64,000 bases of DNA from NCBI GenBank assembly GCA_903882875.1, contig CAIRYQ010000023.1:3680-67679 (forward strand), read 5' to 3'. The position numbers and the translations under genes were made by a program. This stretch comes from an uncultured Spartobacteria bacterium (lineage in GTDB: Bacteria; Verrucomicrobiota; Verrucomicrobiia; Chthoniobacterales; Chthoniobacteraceae). The notes below the pieces were generated by a model. The model was not told where the DNA came from. It did not search any database and saw only the letters and a program-made list of their open reading frames with translations. Shown piece after piece: positions 36,925 to 42,100 of this stretch (positions are counted from its first letter, which is position 1; every line of letters starts with the position of its first letter).

Positions 36925-37580
36925 ACGCGCTCTTTGAACGGCTCGAAGCCGAGCTCGAAAAAGTTCACCGAGTTCTCCATCACATGCACGAGCGAGCCGA
37001 TGAAGGTCTCCCATTCCTGGTCGTTCACGAACTGCGTGTCCCACGCGACAAAGACGCAGTTCGGCGCGGCGTTCGACACTTCGATGAGCACGCGGATGTC
37101 CTTTTCCCAGTCGGGAATTTTCACGTAGCCGAGCGCGCACGGCTTGTGGACGAGCGCATTGTGCGAGAACTGATCGAGCCACTTGTCACGCTCCTCGGGC
37201 GTGTCGAACTTCGCGTGAACGTGCGTCGAGAGATGCGTCACGGTTTTCTTGTCGAACTTCATCAGGTTGAAAAATCGCGTGAGCGTCTGCGCGATGATCG
37301 TCCAGTCGCCCGCCGTGCGAGCGTTGCGCACGCCGAGCTTCACGCGGTCGGCGGTGCGGTTCAGCGAGCCGTTGTCGCCGAAGAAGACGGCCTTCAGCTC
37401 GTAGTCAAAAAGGTCGTCCACTTTCCGCAGGTGGATTTGATCAGGGCGCAGTCCGAGTCCCGTCTGCGGGTCGCAGACCTTCGCGGCAAAATCATCCAGC
37501 TTCGCGCTGCCGTAGCCGAGCGGCGCGGGGAACGGCACATCAACGGCGACGCCAAAAATTTCAATCGGGAGTACTTCCAT
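36921..37580 (-). CDS. Hypothetical protein (219 aa), translationally coupled to rsuA
   Basis: Normal coding composition. Its stop overlaps the rsuA GTG start (GTGA). No family recognised with confidence. Confidence 0.6.
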   Translation of the reverse strand: MEVLPIEIFGVAVDVPFPAPLGYGSAKLDDFAAKVCDPQTGLGLRPDQIHLRKVDDLFDYELKAVFFGDNGSLNRTADRVKLGVRNARTAGDWTIIAQTLTRFFNLMKFDKKTVTHLSTHVHAKFDTPEERDKWLDQFSHNALVHKPCALGYVKIPDWEKDIRVLIEVSNAAPNCVFVAWDTQFVNDQEWETFIGSLVHVMENSVNFFELGFEPFKERV

Positions 37581-37727
37581 GGGGCGCGGAGCCTAGCGGG
37601 AAAGGCGCGGATGCAAATCCTGTTTTTGCGCGCCGGCAGTCCCGCATTGACGGCCACAATTCCCGAGTCGCCCCGCGCAATCCCCGCGCTTCCCATCACG
37701 CCTGCGCTCGCGCATGTTGCGGGCGCG

Positions 37728-38336
37728 ATGACCACTGCGAACAAGATCACCATCGGGCGGATCGTGATGATCCCGTTCTTTGTGCTCATGGCGCTGTACT
37801 ACGGGCGCAGCGTCGCGCACGGGCACCCGCAGGAATGGATGCGCCTCACGGCCATCGCCATTTTCGTCGTCGCCGCGGCGAGCGACGGCATTGATGGCTA
37901 CATCGCGCGCCGCTACAATCAGATGAGCAAGCTCGGCACCGTGCTCGATCCCATCGCGGACAAGGGGCTGCTCCTCGCCGGCGTCATCACGCTCAGCGTG
38001 AGCAACTGGCAGTACGAATTCCCGCTGTGGTTCCCCGTGCTCGTCATCGCGCGCGACGTGGCCATCGTCACGGGCGTCATCGCCGTGCATTTCATCAATG
38101 GCGACACCCGCGTGAGCCCGAGCTGGATGGGAAAGACGGCCACCGTCGCGCAGATGATCGCCATCGGCTGCGCGATGCTTTTCACCGGCAGCGAATGGAA
38201 GGGCTACCTCGACGTGCCGGTCTTCGTCGCCGGATTCTTCACGCTCGTCTCCGGCCTGCTCTACATCCGCGAAGGCATCCGCCAGCTCCACGCGAAAGGA
38301 CACGGCGAACCGCAGCCGCCGGGCAGGCTGCTTTAG
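37728..38336 (+). CDS. pgsA: CDP-alcohol phosphatidyltransferase (PgsA-like)
   Basis: The ATG at 37728 opens the ORF. The motif DGIDGYIARRYNQMSKLGTVLDPIADK matches D(x)2DG(x)2AR...G(x)3D(x)3D. Multi-TM. Confidence 0.85.
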   Translation: MTTANKITIGRIVMIPFFVLMALYYGRSVAHGHPQEWMRLTAIAIFVVAAASDGIDGYIARRYNQMSKLGTVLDPIADKGLLLAGVITLSVSNWQYEFPLWFPVLVIARDVAIVTGVIAVHFINGDTRVSPSWMGKTATVAQMIAIGCAMLFTGSEWKGYLDVPVFVAGFFTLVSGLLYIREGIRQLHAKGHGEPQPPGRLL

Positions 38337-38417
38337 GCGGACGGCAAAATCCGTCCCTTGCGCAGGGTTCCAATTTCAGCGATCCGTGCGCGCATCCGGC
38401 ATCCGGGCTGCGAATCC

Positions 38418-38666
38418 ATGAATGTGAAACCCACCGCCCTCGGCATCATCCTCATTGTCGCGCTCCTCCAGCAGGGATGCATTGTCGCCCGTGTCGTCAC
38501 GTCCCCGATCCGGTACGCCGAGCACCGCGCGGAAATCGCGAGGGCCAAAAAGCGCGGTGAGCGGGAGGCCGAAAAGCGCAGCGAGAAGGAAGCCGAGAAG
38601 AGGGAAGCCCCGCCGGCGCACATCGAGCGGCCCGATGCCCCGCCTCCGGAAGCGCCCGCGAACTAG
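38418..38666 (+). CDS. Small lipoprotein with charged Lys/Glu/Arg-rich tail (hypothetical)
   Basis: MNVKPTALGIILIVALLQQGC lipobox-like N-terminus. Short, no homology recognised. Confidence 0.45.
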   Translation: MNVKPTALGIILIVALLQQGCIVARVVTSPIRYAEHRAEIARAKKRGEREAEKRSEKEAEKREAPPAHIERPDAPPPEAPAN

Positions 38667-38730
38667 CACGCGCCCGGCAGGCTGCGGCAGCGCGTTTCAT
38701 GGACTTCATCGAGGGCCAACGGCCCCGCAC

Positions 38731-38914
38731 AAGCCAGCCCAGGGCAAGTCCGCGTGATGGCTGCATCACGCGGACGCCGCCCTGGGATCTGAATGAAGAA
38801 TGATCAATGCCCTGAAGGGGCGGGACAAACCGTGTGGCGCCCCTTCAGGGCTTTGTCCTTTTTCCACGCTATTCCCAGGGCGGCGCTCGTTCCTCGCTTG
38901 CCCTGGGCTGGCTT
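38731..38914. repeat. 184-nt perfectly nested palindromic element (four perfect helices)
   Basis: P1 38731-38748 pairs with 38897-38914 (18 bp). P2 is a hairpin, 38748-38759 with 38764-38775 (12 bp). P3 38776-38786 pairs with 38874-38884 (11 bp). P4 is a hairpin, 38809-38822 with 38838-38851 (14 bp), followed by a T-rich run. Confidence 0.75.
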
Positions 38915-39101
38915 GTTCCGGGCCTTTGGCCCGCGATGCACCGCGGTTTTCAAAGTGCATGACACGCTGCGGCAACGGCCAAGATCCAACGAACACACCC
39001 TCGCCGGGATTGCCCGTCGCACACTTCACCGCTATTCCCGACACCATGCGTGAGCGGGCGGGAGGAAAACGGATCGGAGCGCGCAACGCGGAGCACGGAT
39101 T

Positions 39102-39156
39102 GTGACTGGTGACTGGTGACTGGTGAATGGATGGGCGCTTCTAGTCACCAGTCACA
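39102..39156. repeat. Inverted heptamer arrays (GTGACTG x3.5 / CAGTCAC x2) forming a hairpin in the 5' leader of the 39197 gene
   Basis: gtgactggtgactggtgactggtga, then a 16-nt spacer, then agtcaccagtcaca. The arms are reverse complements over 13 nt. Confidence 0.8.
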
Positions 39157-39196
39157 GCCTCTTGCCCGCCGCACCTTTCCAATTTATCCACGCACC

Positions 39197-42100
39197 ATGC
39201 GCACGCCCCTCCTCTCCCTCGTCCTCGCACTCGCAGCGATTTTTTCCACGCACGCCGCCGAGCCCTTTGAGATAAAAGACGGCGACCGCGTCCTCTTCCT
39301 CGGGGACACGCTCCTCGAACGCGAGGGCACCTACGGCTACCTCGAGACCCGCATGGCCGAGCAGTTCCCCGACCGGAAGTTCACCGTGCGCAACCTCGCC
39401 TTCAGCGCCGACACGCCGCTCGGCTGGTCGCGCGCGTCGTTCGACCCCGCGGCGAAGGGCTTCGAGCGGCTGAAGGAGCAGCTCGCGCTCGTGCAGCCCA
39501 CGGTCGTCTTCCTCGGCTACGGCATGGCCGCGAGCCTGCAGGAAATGACCGACCGCTCGCAGGACTGGACGCTGAACCGCGACACCGCCCGCTACGGTGC
39601 CGAGCCGATGAGCGCCGGGCGGTTCAAACGCGAGCTTGCACAACTCATGGACGCAATCGTGGAGGGAAACCGGAAACCGGATACCGGATACCGGAAAGGG
39701 GAAGATGGCGACGCTGACGCGTCGAAGCAGAATCTATCCGGTATCCGGTATCCGGTATCCGGTTTCCGTTTCGTCCTGCTCTCGCCGATCCGGCACGAGG
39801 ACTTGCGCGCGACGCGCCCCGGCCTGCCCGACCCGACGGAGCACAACAAGCTGCTGGAGCAATACAGCAAGGCCATCGAGGAACTGGCGAAGGAGCGCGG
39901 GGCGCGGTTTGTCTCGCTGAACTTCCCGTTAATCTACCATCTCACACCCGAGCAAATCGCGACGAATATGGGAGGGCCGAATCCGATTCTCTTGACGGAC
40001 AACGGCATCCATCTCAACGAGGTGGGTTACGTCGGGATGCTGCGCCAAATGTGTGAGGCTCTCAGTTGGGGCAGCTACCTCGGGAAGGGAGTGGCGCTCG
40101 GTGAACCCATTTCCACACCGCCGGGACCCAAATTCACTCAGGAGGATATCGCGGCATCTTTGAAATGGCATGAGCGCAAGGAAGCCCTCCGCGCCGCCAT
40201 CATCCGCAAGAACGCGCTCTTCTTCCACCGCTGGCGGCCGGCGAATGAGACCTACCTCTTCGGCTTCCGCAAACGCGAGCAGGGGCAGAACGCCGTCGAG
40301 ATTCCGAAGTTCGACCCGCTCATCGAAGCCGCCGAGGCCGAGATCGAGAAGCTGAAGCACGCTCCCAAGGGGGCCAGCGTCATGCCCTCCGAAGACGGGG
40401 CCACGGCTGACATTCACGGCGGCGTGTCCCCCGAACTCCCTGCTGTGTCCGCCGAACACCGGTCGGTGTCTGGCGAACACCGATCGGTGTCTGACGAACA
40501 CCGGTCGGTGTCTGGCGAACACCGGTCGGTGTCTGACGAACACCGGTCGGTGTCTGGCGAACACCGGTCGGTGTCTGGCGAACACCGGTCGGTGTCTGAC
40601 GAACACCGGTCAGTGTCTGACGAACACCGGTCGGTGTTTGACGAACACCGGTCGGTGTTTGACGAACACCGGTCGGTGTTTGACGAACACACAGCCGCTT
40701 CCGCGCAGCAAAAGGCCGATTTTCAGCCACAAACGCCCGTTTTCACCTCCGCCGGCCAACTTTACGCAGCCAACGACACCCCGGCGATCGGGAACCAGCC
40801 CCCAGTCACCAGTCACCAGTCACCAGTCACATCCCCCGACCCCGCCCGCCAGACCCCCGCCGAGACGCCCGACCTTTCCAAGCTCCCCGCCTCGCCCTCC
40901 ACCCTCCCGCTCCCCACCTTCACCCTCGCCGACGGCCTCGAAATCTCCCTCTGGGCCGAAAACCCGCTCCTCGCCAAGCCGACCGAGATGAATTGGGACG
41001 CACAGGGCCGCCTGTGGGTGGCGAGCAGCGCACTGTATCCCATGATCGCCCCCGGCCAGGCGGCGGACGACAAAATCCTCATCCTCGAAGACCCCGGCCA
41101 CACGGGGAAGGGGACGAAGAGCACGGTCTTCGTGGACGGGCTGCTGCTGCCGACGGGGGTGGCACCGGTGCTCGTGGAAGACCGGAAAGCGGATACCGGA
41201 AACCGGAAAGGGGAAGATGGCGACGCTGACGCGTCTAAGCAGAATCTATCCGGTATCCGCTCTCCGGTATCCGGTATCGCCCGCTGGGCCTGCTACGTCG
41301 GCCAGTCCACCGAGCTGCTCTACTTCGAGGACACGCAAGGCACCGGCAAGGCGGACAAAAAGCGCATCGTCCTCAGCGGATTCGGCACCGAGGACACGCA
41401 CCACATCGTCCACACCCTGCGCTGGGGGCCGGATGGCCGGCTCTATTTTAACCAAAGCGTGTACATCCACACGCACATGGAGACGCCGTGGGGCGTCGTG
41501 CGGCTGAACAGCGGCGGCGTCTTCGCCTACGACCCGCGCACCGAGCGCGTGGAAGTCGTCACGAAGGGCCTCTGGAACACGTGGGGCCACGCATGGGACC
41601 AATGGGGCCAGAGCTTCCTCTCGGATGGCGCGGGCTTCAGCGGCATCTCGTGGGCATTCCCCGGAGCCGTCTTCAACCCGAGCGAAGGCAGCCGCCGGCA
41701 GATGCCCAGCATCAGCCCCGGCAGCTACCCGAAATTCGCCGGCCTCGAGCTCATCTACAGCCCGCACTTCCCCGCCGAGTGGCAGGGCACGGCGGTGACG
41801 TGCGACTTCCGCGCGCACAAAATCGTGCATTTCAAGATCAACGACCTCGGTTTGGAGCAGTCAGCAAAGAGCGGCTACGTCACCGATCAGCTCCCCGTGC
41901 TTGCGCAGACGAGCGACGCGACCTTCCGCCCGATTGACGTGAAGCTCGGCCCCGACGGCGCGATCTACATCGCCGACTGGAGCAACCCGATCATCAACCA
42001 CGGCGAAGTGGACTTCCGCGACCCGCGCCGCGACCACGAGCACGGCCGCATCTGGCGCCTGAGCATGAAGGGTGGAGCGGCGGTGAAGTGGGAGAGTCTG

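What the first reader, a model, noticed from the sequence alone, without database searches (positions are those of the whole stretch)
38731..38914. 184-nt perfectly nested four-helix palindrome between the small lipoprotein gene and the giant gene
Four perfect helices of 18, 12, 11 and 14 bp are nested as P1[P2 hairpin][P3[P4 hairpin]]. P1 and P3 share the core cccagggc. P4 is followed by a T-rich run and could double as the terminator of the upstream operon. The helices have zero mismatches, which is more typical of a young composite REP/MITE-like element, or a nested insertion of one palindrome into another, than of a conserved ncRNA. Its translations (ALKGR..., PFRAL...IPRAAL...LPWAGL.RAFGP) resemble spurious peptides that I recall seeing annotated in many PVC and Acidobacteria genomes. 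If that recollection is right, this is a widespread repeat family.
Basis: partly seen in the sequence, partly recalled or inferred. Interest (0 to 1): 0.6.

Follow-up and report, generated by a model that had tools for sequence, protein, structure and literature searches.

The report
Gene-less hairpin repeat of Y1 transposase
The nested palindrome is one of about 30 gene-less copies of the hairpin cassette that elsewhere in this Verrucomicrobiota genome surrounds a small single-strand-DNA (Y1) transposase gene, and its end units are the motif that Rfam lists as the unexplained "Acido-Lenti-1" small RNA.

Summary
The four helices are real: P1 18 bp, P2 12 bp, P3 13 bp (not 11) and P4 14 bp; fold -131 kcal/mol, z = -11.8. 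The element is larger than reported, about 38690-38967.

It is not single-copy. The genome holds about 37 loci of this family, 18-19 of them near-complete, and 24 of 24 sister species searched have matches. In five sister species a 151-aa Y1 (HUH) transposase gene sits inside the loop of P4. That gene is flanked by the same two mirror-image, two-hairpin end units. The window element therefore has the same layout as that cassette, minus the gene. This explains why P1 and P3 share CCCAGGGC.

The end unit has the architecture of Rfam RF01687 (Acido-Lenti-1). Bona fide RF01687 hits bracket related Y1 genes in Planctomycetota, Acidobacteriota and Verrucomicrobiota.

The copy is absent from the orthologous site in sister species and lies between genes. 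The family shows no consistent target duplication.

Not supported:
- "young": the nearest copy is 84% identical;
- the canonical-terminator idea;
- the "spurious peptides" recollection.

Best reading: a REPIN-like repeat, probably mobilised in trans by a subclass-1.2 Y1 transposase.

Earlier agents of this scan reached the same Acido-Lenti-1/Y1 link on other genomes. I found no paper that makes it.

The parts
38690..38712 (.). Left outer terminal block. It is a degenerate, partly deleted copy of the family's TGTCATGCACTTTG... block.
   Evidence: Flank alignment of 19 copies. The block, with at most 1 mismatch, occurs essentially only at family-1 loci, + on the left and - on the right.
38713..38725 (-). 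Left hp2: 5-bp hairpin GGGCC-AAC-GGCCC. It is the outer hairpin of the left end unit, which is in inverted orientation.
   Evidence: All 5 pairs show compensatory changes across 102 units.
38726..38737 (-). Left linker, the mirror image of CTGGCTTGT..; it contributes to P1.
   Evidence: It belongs to the most conserved block, AAGCCAGCCCAGGGC.
38738..38786 (-). Left hp1: 8-bp stem CCCAGGGC / GCCCTGGG. Its loop carries the P2 hairpin (38748-38775). The outer arm is the 5' half of P1 and the inner arm is the 5' half of P3.
   Evidence: I12 and I5. Loop variants are seen.
38809..38851 (.). P4: 14-bp central hairpin with a 15-nt loop. The arms correspond to the sequences that bracket the Y1 gene in sister species.
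   Evidence: In L045-L049 the gene lies between GCCCCAACGGGGCG and CGCCCCGTTGGGGC. Arm variants between copies are compensatory.
38874..38907 (+). Right hp1: 8-bp stem with the family's standard 18-nt loop. The inner arm is the 3' half of P3 and the outer arm is the 3' half of P1.
   Evidence: I13.
38908..38919 (+). Right linker CTGGCTTGTTCC. Its first two bases, CT (38908-38909), are the only invariant columns among 102 units.
   Evidence: invariant C39 and T40. This resembles the C|T cleavage requirement of E. coli TnpA-REP (PMC3333891); a cleavage role here is inference only.
38920..38932 (+). Right hp2: GGGCC-TTT-GGCCC. Together with the right hp1 and linker it forms the Acido-Lenti-1-like unit.
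   Evidence: RF01687 gives 18.8 bits at 38901-38933. Sister copies score up to 36.1 bits against a gathering score of 37.
38933..38967 (.). Right outer terminal block (...CAAAGTGCATGACAC), well preserved.
38681..38689 (+). 9-nt direct repeat GCTGCGGCA, repeated at 38966-38974, flanking this copy. Probably not a target-site duplication.
   Evidence: P(>=9) is about 0.0075 for random flank pairs, but 6 other complete copies show only 3-6 nt, which is chance level. Sister species already have a near-repeat at this site.

Best explanation
The palindrome is the core of a roughly 278-nt, gene-less, REPIN-like repeat.

The family's gene-bearing form is a cassette with this layout: [hp2 - linker - hp1] - spacer - P4 left arm - 151-aa Y1 (HUH, IS200-like, subclass 1.2) transposase gene - P4 right arm - spacer - [hp1 - linker - hp2]. 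The two end units are mirror images of each other. The window element has the same layout without the gene, so the P4 arms close into a hairpin.

Because each end unit is itself a hairpin (CCCAGGGC...GCCCTGGG), the two inverted units can pair in two ways. They can pair locally, giving two hairpins. Or they can pair with each other, outer arms giving P1 and inner arms giving P3. P2 is an optional hairpin module in the loop of the left hp1.

Inferred mechanism: when the DNA is single-stranded, for example at replication forks, the single-copy Y1 enzyme (P0001, on contig C120) recognises the two-hairpin end unit. It then cuts and rejoins nearby, possibly at the invariant CT. In this way it moves or copies gene-less elements into intergenic DNA without a target duplication.

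Shown here: the architecture, the homology to the cassette, multi-copy status, lineage-specific presence at this site, extragenic bias and structural covariation. Inferred: that P0001 is the mobilising enzyme, that the substrate is ssDNA, and where it cuts.
For: - Repeat family. There are about 37 loci and 18-19 near-complete copies in the genome. Matches occur in 24 of 24 sister species searched.
- Y1 gene next to the repeat in the window's own genome. The gene at C120:118177-118629 lies between a full copy (117879-118108) and a half copy (118644-118754).
- Same cassette in other species. Orthologues at 76-89% amino-acid identity in five further species (G003, G004, G005, G042, G043) show the P4 arms on either side of the gene. 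In G003, G004 and G042 both inverted end units were also found by a strict scan. A broken sixth orthologue in G010 is likewise flanked by inverted units.
- One orthologue per genome.
- Two further Y1 paralogues (C92, C3) each sit in an analogous cassette with their own dispersed repeat family.
- Link to Rfam. RF01687 hits at or above the gathering score bracket related Y1 genes in (-) gene (+) order. Examples are a Pirellulaceae MAG (48.3 / 48.1 bits), a Blastocatellia MAG (43.8 / 43.8 bits) and G165 (41 / 32.8 bits).
- Lineage-specific insertion. At the orthologous site G042 has a 32-nt spacer. G045 carries a different (family-2) doublet. G005 and G015 carry unrelated repeats.
- Extragenic. 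1 of 18 copies overlaps a coding-like ORF, against 44% of random windows, P = 4.6e-4.
- No consistent TSD, as expected for Y1 enzymes (PMC3333891).
- Structure is constrained. 97.3% of cells are paired, 11 of 13 pairs have double changes, and there are 68 compensatory cells against 11.7 +/- 2.8 in shuffles.
- Repeat behaviour in assemblies. Metagenome contigs break inside the element, and summed depth rises about 30-fold over the right unit.
Against: - No enzymatic or in vivo evidence of mobilisation exists. The complex prediction of the P0001 dimer with the ssDNA unit scored no better than shuffled DNA (0.05).
- In the window's own genome the cassette is rearranged. A whole gene-less copy replaces the expected left unit.
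- Copies are old: median identity is 73% and the closest pair is 94%. Recent activity is therefore not shown.
- The window copy scores only 18.8 bits on RF01687.
- Three of five genomes with bona fide RF01687 hits showed no clear hit next to their Y1 genes; one had only a weak 25-bit hit.
- Some sister species have the repeats but no close orthologue of P0001 in their incomplete assemblies.
- No RNA data exist, so an RNA-level role is not excluded.
Confidence: 0.8

Rival explanations
1. It is, or encodes, a structured small RNA, as Rfam classifies Acido-Lenti-1. On this view the hairpins are conserved because the RNA needs them, and the association with Y1 genes is incidental or regulatory.
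For: Covariation in hp1 and hp2 is equally compatible with an RNA structure. Weinberg et al. rated the motif 'probably' an RNA (PMC2864571). No RNA-seq is available to exclude transcription.
Against: Units occur as mirror-image pairs, so both strands carry the motif. They bracket a transposase gene in the same geometry in several phyla. Copy number is about 37 loci, with contig breaks and depth pile-ups. Occupancy of the orthologous site differs between species. No promoter-like site lies nearby.
Confidence: 0.07
2. It is a classical MITE: a deletion derivative of a DDE-transposase insertion sequence, moved by cut-and-paste through its terminal inverted repeats, with a target-site duplication.
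For: It has long terminal inverted repeats, a size of 200-330 nt, intergenic location and many copies. The window copy has a 9-nt flanking direct repeat.
Against: Six other complete copies have no duplication beyond chance. The conserved core words are never found 0.5-3 kb apart, as they would be around a full IS. The only gene found inside this architecture is a Y1 transposase, whose family makes no target duplication (PMC3333891).
Confidence: 0.03
3. Its main role is regulatory. P4, with A-rich and T-rich flanks, would act as a possibly bidirectional transcription terminator or mRNA-stabilising hairpin between the lipoprotein gene and the giant gene. The repeat would then have been recruited for that role. 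This could coexist with the best explanation.
For: P4 is a GC-rich 14-bp stem followed by TTTGTCCTTTTT. The two genes are co-directional and only 32 nt apart in G042, which lacks any insert. An insert could therefore uncouple them. REPs in E. coli are known to affect mRNA stability and termination (background in PMC3733652).
Against: The consensus terminator scan finds nothing here, because the loop is 15 nt against the 3-8 allowed. Sister species tolerate quite different inserts, or none, at the same site. There are no transcript data.
Confidence: 0.1

Closest known systems
REPIN-RAYT systems / REPtrons (Nunvar 2010; Bertels & Rainey 2011, PMC3116915; Ton-Hoang 2012, PMC3333891)
   Same: A single-copy Y1 HUH transposase gene is flanked by inverted palindromic repeats. 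The same repeats are dispersed in extragenic DNA as inverted doublets that fold into long hairpins. Each Y1 paralogue has its own repeat family, and there is no target duplication. A CT next to the hairpin is conserved; in E. coli CT is the cleavage requirement.
   Different: The protein is not in the RAYT (class 2) clade. It carries the subclass-1.2 signature. The repeat unit is a 45-67-nt two-hairpin module without a GTAG or CGTC tag, rather than a single 20-40-nt palindrome. The doublet is 200-330 nt long and has an extra central hairpin, whose loop is where the gene sits.
TIRtrons / TIRYTs (Di Nocera et al. 2013, PMC3733652)
   Same: Y1 transposase genes are flanked by long, sometimes doubly palindromic terminal inverted repeats. 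These repeats also form moderately abundant families arranged as dimers or clusters. One group is specific to Acidobacteria.
   Different: That paper does not connect the TIRs to Rfam RF01687 and does not describe the gene-in-hairpin-loop layout. I could not compare sequences with their figures, so identity with any of their four groups is untested.
TnpA-Y1 subclass 1.2 (Quentin et al. 2018, PMC6006769)
   Same: P0001 has the Y---Q--HH motif (Y116, Q120, H123, H124), a short core, a conserved C-terminal tail and a low copy number.
   Different: The subclass was described as generally lacking terminal secondary structures, as not having IS properties, and as occurring mostly in Cyanobacteria and Bacteroidetes. 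Here it is bracketed by structured inverted repeats with dispersed gene-less copies, in Verrucomicrobiota, Planctomycetota and Acidobacteriota.
Rfam RF01687, Acido-Lenti-1 RNA motif (Weinberg et al. 2010, PMC2864571)
   Same: The architecture is the same: an 8-bp hairpin starting CCyAG, then CU, a roughly 10-nt linker, and a 5-bp hairpin with a UUY loop. Copies in this genome score up to 36.1 bits.
   Different: No copy in this genome reaches the gathering score of 37, and the window copy scores 18.8. hp1 loops here are 3-67 nt, against about 4 in the model. Rfam lists the motif as an sRNA of unknown function; here it behaves as a DNA repeat end.
IS200/IS605 insertion sequences (IS608, ISDra2)
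   Same: Y1 HUH enzyme (Pfam Y1_Tnp 82.9 bits; NCBIfam IS200 58.4 bits against a cut-off of 55), subterminal hairpins, and no target duplication.
   Different: IS200/IS605 ends are not inverted repeats, and both hairpins lie on one strand. Those ISs are multi-copy as whole elements. Here the gene is single-copy and only the gene-less form is multi-copy.

Membership tests
REPIN-RAYT / REPtron | Y1 (HUH) transposase gene present, about one copy per genome | tested here: met
   Pfam Y1_Tnp scores 82.9 bits. There is one orthologue of P0001 per genome in the own genome and in five further species. The other Y1 genes are paralogues at 57% amino-acid identity or less.
REPIN-RAYT / REPtron | Gene flanked by the repeat in inverted orientation | tested here: met
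   Both inverted units were found in L046, L047, L048 and L058, and in the named MAG loci L095 and L096. In the window's own genome the left unit is replaced by a whole gene-less copy.
REPIN-RAYT / REPtron | The same repeat is dispersed, extragenic, multi-copy, and commonly found as inverted doublets | tested here: met
   About 37 loci; 19 core pairs lie 137-202 nt apart. 1 of 18 copies overlaps a coding-like ORF against 44% of random windows.
REPIN-RAYT / REPtron | REP is a single 20-40-nt imperfect palindrome with a conserved 5' tetranucleotide (GTAG) | tested here: not met
   The unit has two hairpins, spans 45-67 nt, and has no GTAG or CGTC tag. The invariant bases are CT, 3' of hp1.
REPIN-RAYT / REPtron | Protein belongs to the RAYT / TnpA-REP clade (class 2 of Quentin 2018) | tested here: not met
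   The Y motif is Y---Q--HH, the subclass-1.2 signature (PMC6006769). NCBIfam names the protein only as IS200-type.
REPIN-RAYT / REPtron | The enzyme binds and cleaves the repeat as ssDNA | not testable with these tools
   The complex prediction was uninformative: 0.05, the same as shuffled DNA.
TnpA-Y1 subclass 1.2 | Y---Q--HH motif, low copy number, conserved C-terminal domain | tested here: met
   Y116, Q120, H123 and H124 are invariant in 12 sequences. The C-terminal ...FQ-E...DERYVWD is conserved. I could not compare the C-terminal domain with the paper's figure.
TnpA-Y1 subclass 1.2 | Generally without terminal secondary structures or IS-like properties | tested here: not met
   Structured inverted ends flank the gene in several phyla.
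Rfam RF01687 Acido-Lenti-1 | Score at or above the gathering threshold (37 bits) | tested here: not met
   The window copy scores 18.8 bits. The best score in this genome is 36.1. Relatives beside Y1 genes in other phyla score 38-48 bits.
Rfam RF01687 Acido-Lenti-1 | Two-hairpin architecture: 8-bp stem, CU, linker, then a 5-bp stem with a UUY loop | tested here: met
   cmscan alignment. Covariation supports both stems.
MITE of a DDE transposon | Fixed-length target-site duplication | tested here: not met
   Six complete copies have 3-6-nt flanking repeats, which is chance level. Only the window copy has 9 nt.
MITE of a DDE transposon | A full-length autonomous element with the same ends and a DDE transposase | tested here: not met
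   The core words are never 0.5-3 kb apart. The only gene inside these ends is a Y1 gene. Repeat-broken contig ends leave some room for a missed element.
Intrinsic terminator | GC-rich stem, 3-8-nt loop, then a U-run | tested here: not met
   There are no terminator-like sites in 38300-39300. The P4 loop is 15 nt.

The most novel reading that the evidence does not exclude
Acido-Lenti-1, an orphan Rfam 'sRNA' since 2010, is not an RNA gene. It is the DNA end recognised by subclass-1.2 Y1 transposases. These enzymes, described as lacking IS or REP features, would then run REPIN-like populations of gene-less hairpin cassettes across at least Verrucomicrobiota, Planctomycetota and Acidobacteriota. 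A bolder extension: the whole four-helix fold is the single-stranded transposition intermediate. One arm would be corrected against the other, which would explain perfect helices despite 73% median identity between copies.
Probability: 0.6. Interest if true: 0.65.

Novelty: new variant of a known kind. Interest (0 to 1): 0.5.

Why it matters
It turns an odd palindrome into an interpretable mobile-repeat system, and it links three loose ends:
- a Y1 transposase subclass published as having no associated repeats;
- the 'TIRtron' observation of 2013.

Practical consequences:
- RF01687 hits should be annotated as repeat ends rather than as sRNA genes.
- These repeats break assemblies of PVC and Acidobacteria MAGs.
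- They mark hot intergenic sites where different species carry different inserts, which may uncouple neighbouring genes.

The enzyme-substrate pair (a 151-aa protein and a roughly 60-nt ssDNA unit with an invariant CT) can be tested directly in vitro.

Tried and rejected
- Rfam at permissive thresholds on the window gave nothing above gathering. The miRNA and frameshift-element hits are generic hairpin matches.
- Counting open frames across the element as a test of extragenic location was uninformative at 62.5% GC. Random windows have 2.2 open frames. I replaced it with a GC3-based gene call plus a random control.
- The complex prediction of the P0001 dimer with the 69-nt ssDNA unit scored 0.05, the same as shuffled DNA and below an unrelated-protein control (0.31). 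It counts neither for nor against binding.
- RNA evidence: only DNA metagenome runs (lake water) hold the stretch.
- Laying contigs showed repeat behaviour but no empty-site variant, and no contig spans the element.
- The protein search with the translated repeat found only 4 weak hits.
- Synteny of the Y1 cassette between species: only short repeat-like segments match within 1.2-1.5-kb flanks, which is inconclusive for vertical inheritance versus mobility.
- Target-site duplication is rejected as a family property.
- A DDE-type MITE and a unique ncRNA are rejected, for the reasons given under the rival explanations.

Full report
OBSERVATION.
The four perfect helices are in the sequence.
- P1 is 38731-48 / 38897-914 (18 bp).
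- P2 is 38748-59 / 38764-75 (12 bp).
- P4 is 38809-22 / 38838-51 (14 bp).

The fold energy is -131.2 kcal/mol against -73.9 +/- 4.9 for shuffles, z = -11.8. The reported limits are too narrow. The outer pairing runs on at 90% complementarity to 38707 / 38938. A further conserved terminal block brings the element to about 38690-38967. CCCAGGGC / GCCCTGGG also pair locally on each side (I12 and I13), so the nest has an alternative fold with two local hairpins.

IT IS A REPEAT FAMILY.
The window's genome is a 5.78-Mb assembly in 129 contigs, from a lake-water metagenome. Its nearest named relatives are MAGs labelled Chthoniobacter sp. or Verrucomicrobiaceae.

BLAST and an iterated nhmmer search find about 37 loci of the family in this genome. 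Nineteen loci have the conserved core words 137-202 nt apart, and never kilobases apart. Several copies lie at contig ends. Both strands match almost equally, because the element is globally palindromic.

Copies are old. Median pairwise identity is 73%, the closest pair is 94%, and the window copy's nearest relative is 83.9% identical. All 24 sister species searched have matches, as do 2 of 15 other families in the order.

The family is modular.
- Each end carries a 5-bp hairpin (hp2), a linker and an 8-bp hairpin (hp1).
- The hp1 loop comes in several interchangeable forms: 3 nt, an 18-nt standard loop, or a P2-type hairpin.
- The centre is P4, sometimes with an extra insert in its loop.
- In this genome an additional outer block (TGTCATGCACTTTG...) extends both ends.

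THE ASSOCIATED GENE.
Three Pfam Y1_Tnp genes exist in the genome. One of them, at C120:118177-118629, encodes P0001 (151 aa; Y1_Tnp 82.9 bits; NCBIfam IS200 58.4 bits against a cut-off of 55). It lies between a full copy of the repeat and a half copy.

Orthologues at 76-89% identity occur once per genome in five further species, plus a broken one in G010. In G003, G004, G005, G042 and G043 the gene sits between the two arms of P4, GCCCCAACGGGGCG and CGCCCCGTTGGGGC. Where both ends were found, the two inverted hp1-linker-hp2 units lie outside those arms.

The window element therefore has the layout of this cassette without the gene. This explains all four helices, and it explains why P1 and P3 share CCCAGGGC: they are the outer and inner arms of two mirror-image hp1 hairpins.

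The other two Y1 genes (C92, C3) sit in cassettes of the same design but with different sequences. Each has its own dispersed gene-less family. Family 2 has about 20 inverted doublets roughly 130 nt apart, and family 3 has a handful of copies.

LINK TO RFAM ACIDO-LENTI-1.
The end unit aligns to RF01687 over its full length with the same architecture: an 8-bp stem, CU, a linker, and a 5-bp stem with a UUY loop. Scores reach 36.1 bits in this genome, against a gathering score of 37. The window copy scores only 18.8.

- In a 151-genome sample of the phylum, 8 genomes have hits above the gathering score.
- In two of the five strongest, the best Y1 gene is directly flanked by hits (G165: 41 and 32.8 bits in (-) gene (+) order; G051: inside an array).
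- Scanning named genomes with a Y1 protein alignment found at least 596 loci of this clade.
- I scanned 20 of those loci with Rfam, and 9 have RF01687 hits within 700 nt.
- Four of the 9 show the bracket geometry: Pirellulaceae (48.3 / 48.1 bits), Blastocatellia (43.8 / 43.8), Planctomycetales and Verrucomicrobiae.
- Fourteen control genomes gave no hit at the same threshold.

LITERATURE.
Weinberg 2010 lists the motif as a probable non-cis-regulatory RNA of Acidobacteria and Lentisphaerae (PMC2864571). [quoted passage not shown]

Di Nocera 2013 describes 'TIRtrons'. These are Y1 genes flanked by long, sometimes doubly palindromic inverted repeats that form repeat families, and one group is acidobacterial (PMC3733652).

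Quentin 2018 defines TnpA-Y1 subclass 1.2 by Y---Q--HH, low copy number and a general lack of terminal structures (PMC6006769). P0001 has that motif.

None of the six papers that mention Acido-Lenti-1 connects it to a transposase.

Earlier agents of this scan reached the same link on other genomes: 31 notes hold all the search words I used. I had formed my reading before that look-up. Their lead to Quentin 2018 was checked here.

BEHAVIOUR AS MOBILE DNA.
The orthologous spacer between the lipoprotein gene and the giant gene differs between species.
- It is 32 nt in G042.
- It carries a family-2 doublet in G045.
- It carries unrelated palindromic repeats in G005 and G015.
- Only the window genome has the family-1 element there.

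The window copy is therefore a lineage-specific insertion at a hot site.

Copies avoid coding sequence. One of 18 overlaps a coding-like ORF, against 44% of random windows (P = 4.6e-4).

Six other complete copies have no flanking duplication beyond chance. The window copy's 9-nt repeat coincides with a pre-existing near-repeat in sister species.

Metagenome contigs break inside the element, and summed depth rises about 30-fold over the right unit, even in an unrelated sediment run.

STRUCTURAL CONSTRAINT.
I collected 102 distinct end units by sequence similarity alone.
- 97.3% of cells pair.
- 11 of 13 pairs show changes on both sides.
- There are 68 compensatory cells against 11.7 +/- 2.8 in shuffles.
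- Sliding the partners by 1-3 columns drops pairing to 20-57%.
- All five hp2 pairs covary.
- The only invariant columns are the CT just 3' of hp1.

In E. coli, TnpA-REP acts only on ssDNA, needs the REP hairpin, and cleaves at an indispensable C|T (PMC3333891). A similar role for the CT here is an inference.

The P4 arms also differ between copies in a compensatory way, although some copies are mismatched.

WHAT IS NOT SUPPORTED.
- 'Young element': see the copy identities above.
- A canonical terminator: none was found, and the P4 loop is 15 nt.
- Widely annotated spurious peptides: 4 weak hits.

Transcription could not be assessed, because only DNA runs hold the stretch. The complex prediction was uninformative. 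Synteny of the cassette was inconclusive.

VERDICT.
This is a real, well-explained feature. It is a gene-less, REPIN-like member of a hairpin-cassette family tied to a subclass-1.2 Y1 transposase.

It works like a REPIN-RAYT or TIRtron system but fails two membership criteria of classical REP/RAYT, namely the unit type and the protein clade. I therefore file it as a new variant of a known kind.

Mobilisation by P0001, the ssDNA substrate and the cleavage site are all inferred, not shown.

Noticed in passing
window 39092-39165: A separate hairpin built from GTGACTGG repeats lies just upstream of the giant gene's ATG (39197). Summed metagenome-contig depth piles up here too (683 in an unrelated sediment run, against about 10 in the flanks), so it is probably another widespread repeat. 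The Rfam hits here are generic miRNA-like hairpin matches.
   Followed up: partly
window 36984-38336: The 450-aa ORF upstream looks composite. In 10 or more sister species, residues 1-230 and 232-450 match genes on different contigs, several of them at over 70% identity. This points to a fusion or a juxtaposition specific to this genome.
   Followed up: no
window 38667-39196 and orthologous loci L175-L181: This intergenic site is a hot spot. Sister species carry no insert (G042, 32-nt spacer), a family-2 doublet (G045), or unrelated palindromic repeats (G005, G015). The two genes may be co-transcribed only where the site is empty.
   Followed up: partly
G000:C92:13349-13965 (L041) and about 20 loci, e.g. 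G000:C59:93870-94033: A second repeat family occurs as inverted doublets about 130 nt apart. Its units are of the form CCCAGCGCTGAAGCGCTGGGCTATTTT and score 30-32 bits on RF01687. It brackets its own Y1 gene.
   Followed up: partly
G000:C3:8413-9562 (L043): The third Y1 gene has no obvious ATG start (..AIAQSLAK..). It sits in a cassette of the same design with different sequences. Dispersed copies occur at C19:10990-11181, C128:16422-16634 and a few other sites.
   Followed up: partly
L042 1182-2057 (G000:C120:117879-118754): In the window's own genome the Y1 cassette is rearranged. A whole gene-less copy stands where the left end unit should be, and the left arm of P4 is degenerate. This suggests a nested or tandem insertion at the cassette itself.
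   Followed up: partly
G051:C8:54658-58796 (L077): A same-strand tandem array of Acido-Lenti-1 units, with stretches at a 153-nt period, surrounds a Y1 gene. This layout is BIME-like amplification rather than a simple inverted pair.
   Followed up: no
L044 2100-2334, compared with L047 2375-2608 and L096 1554-1726: A segment of about 230 nt downstream of the Y1 cassette is 89-92% identical between species, while the rest of the flanks do not match. It may be a further module that travels with the cassette.
   Followed up: no
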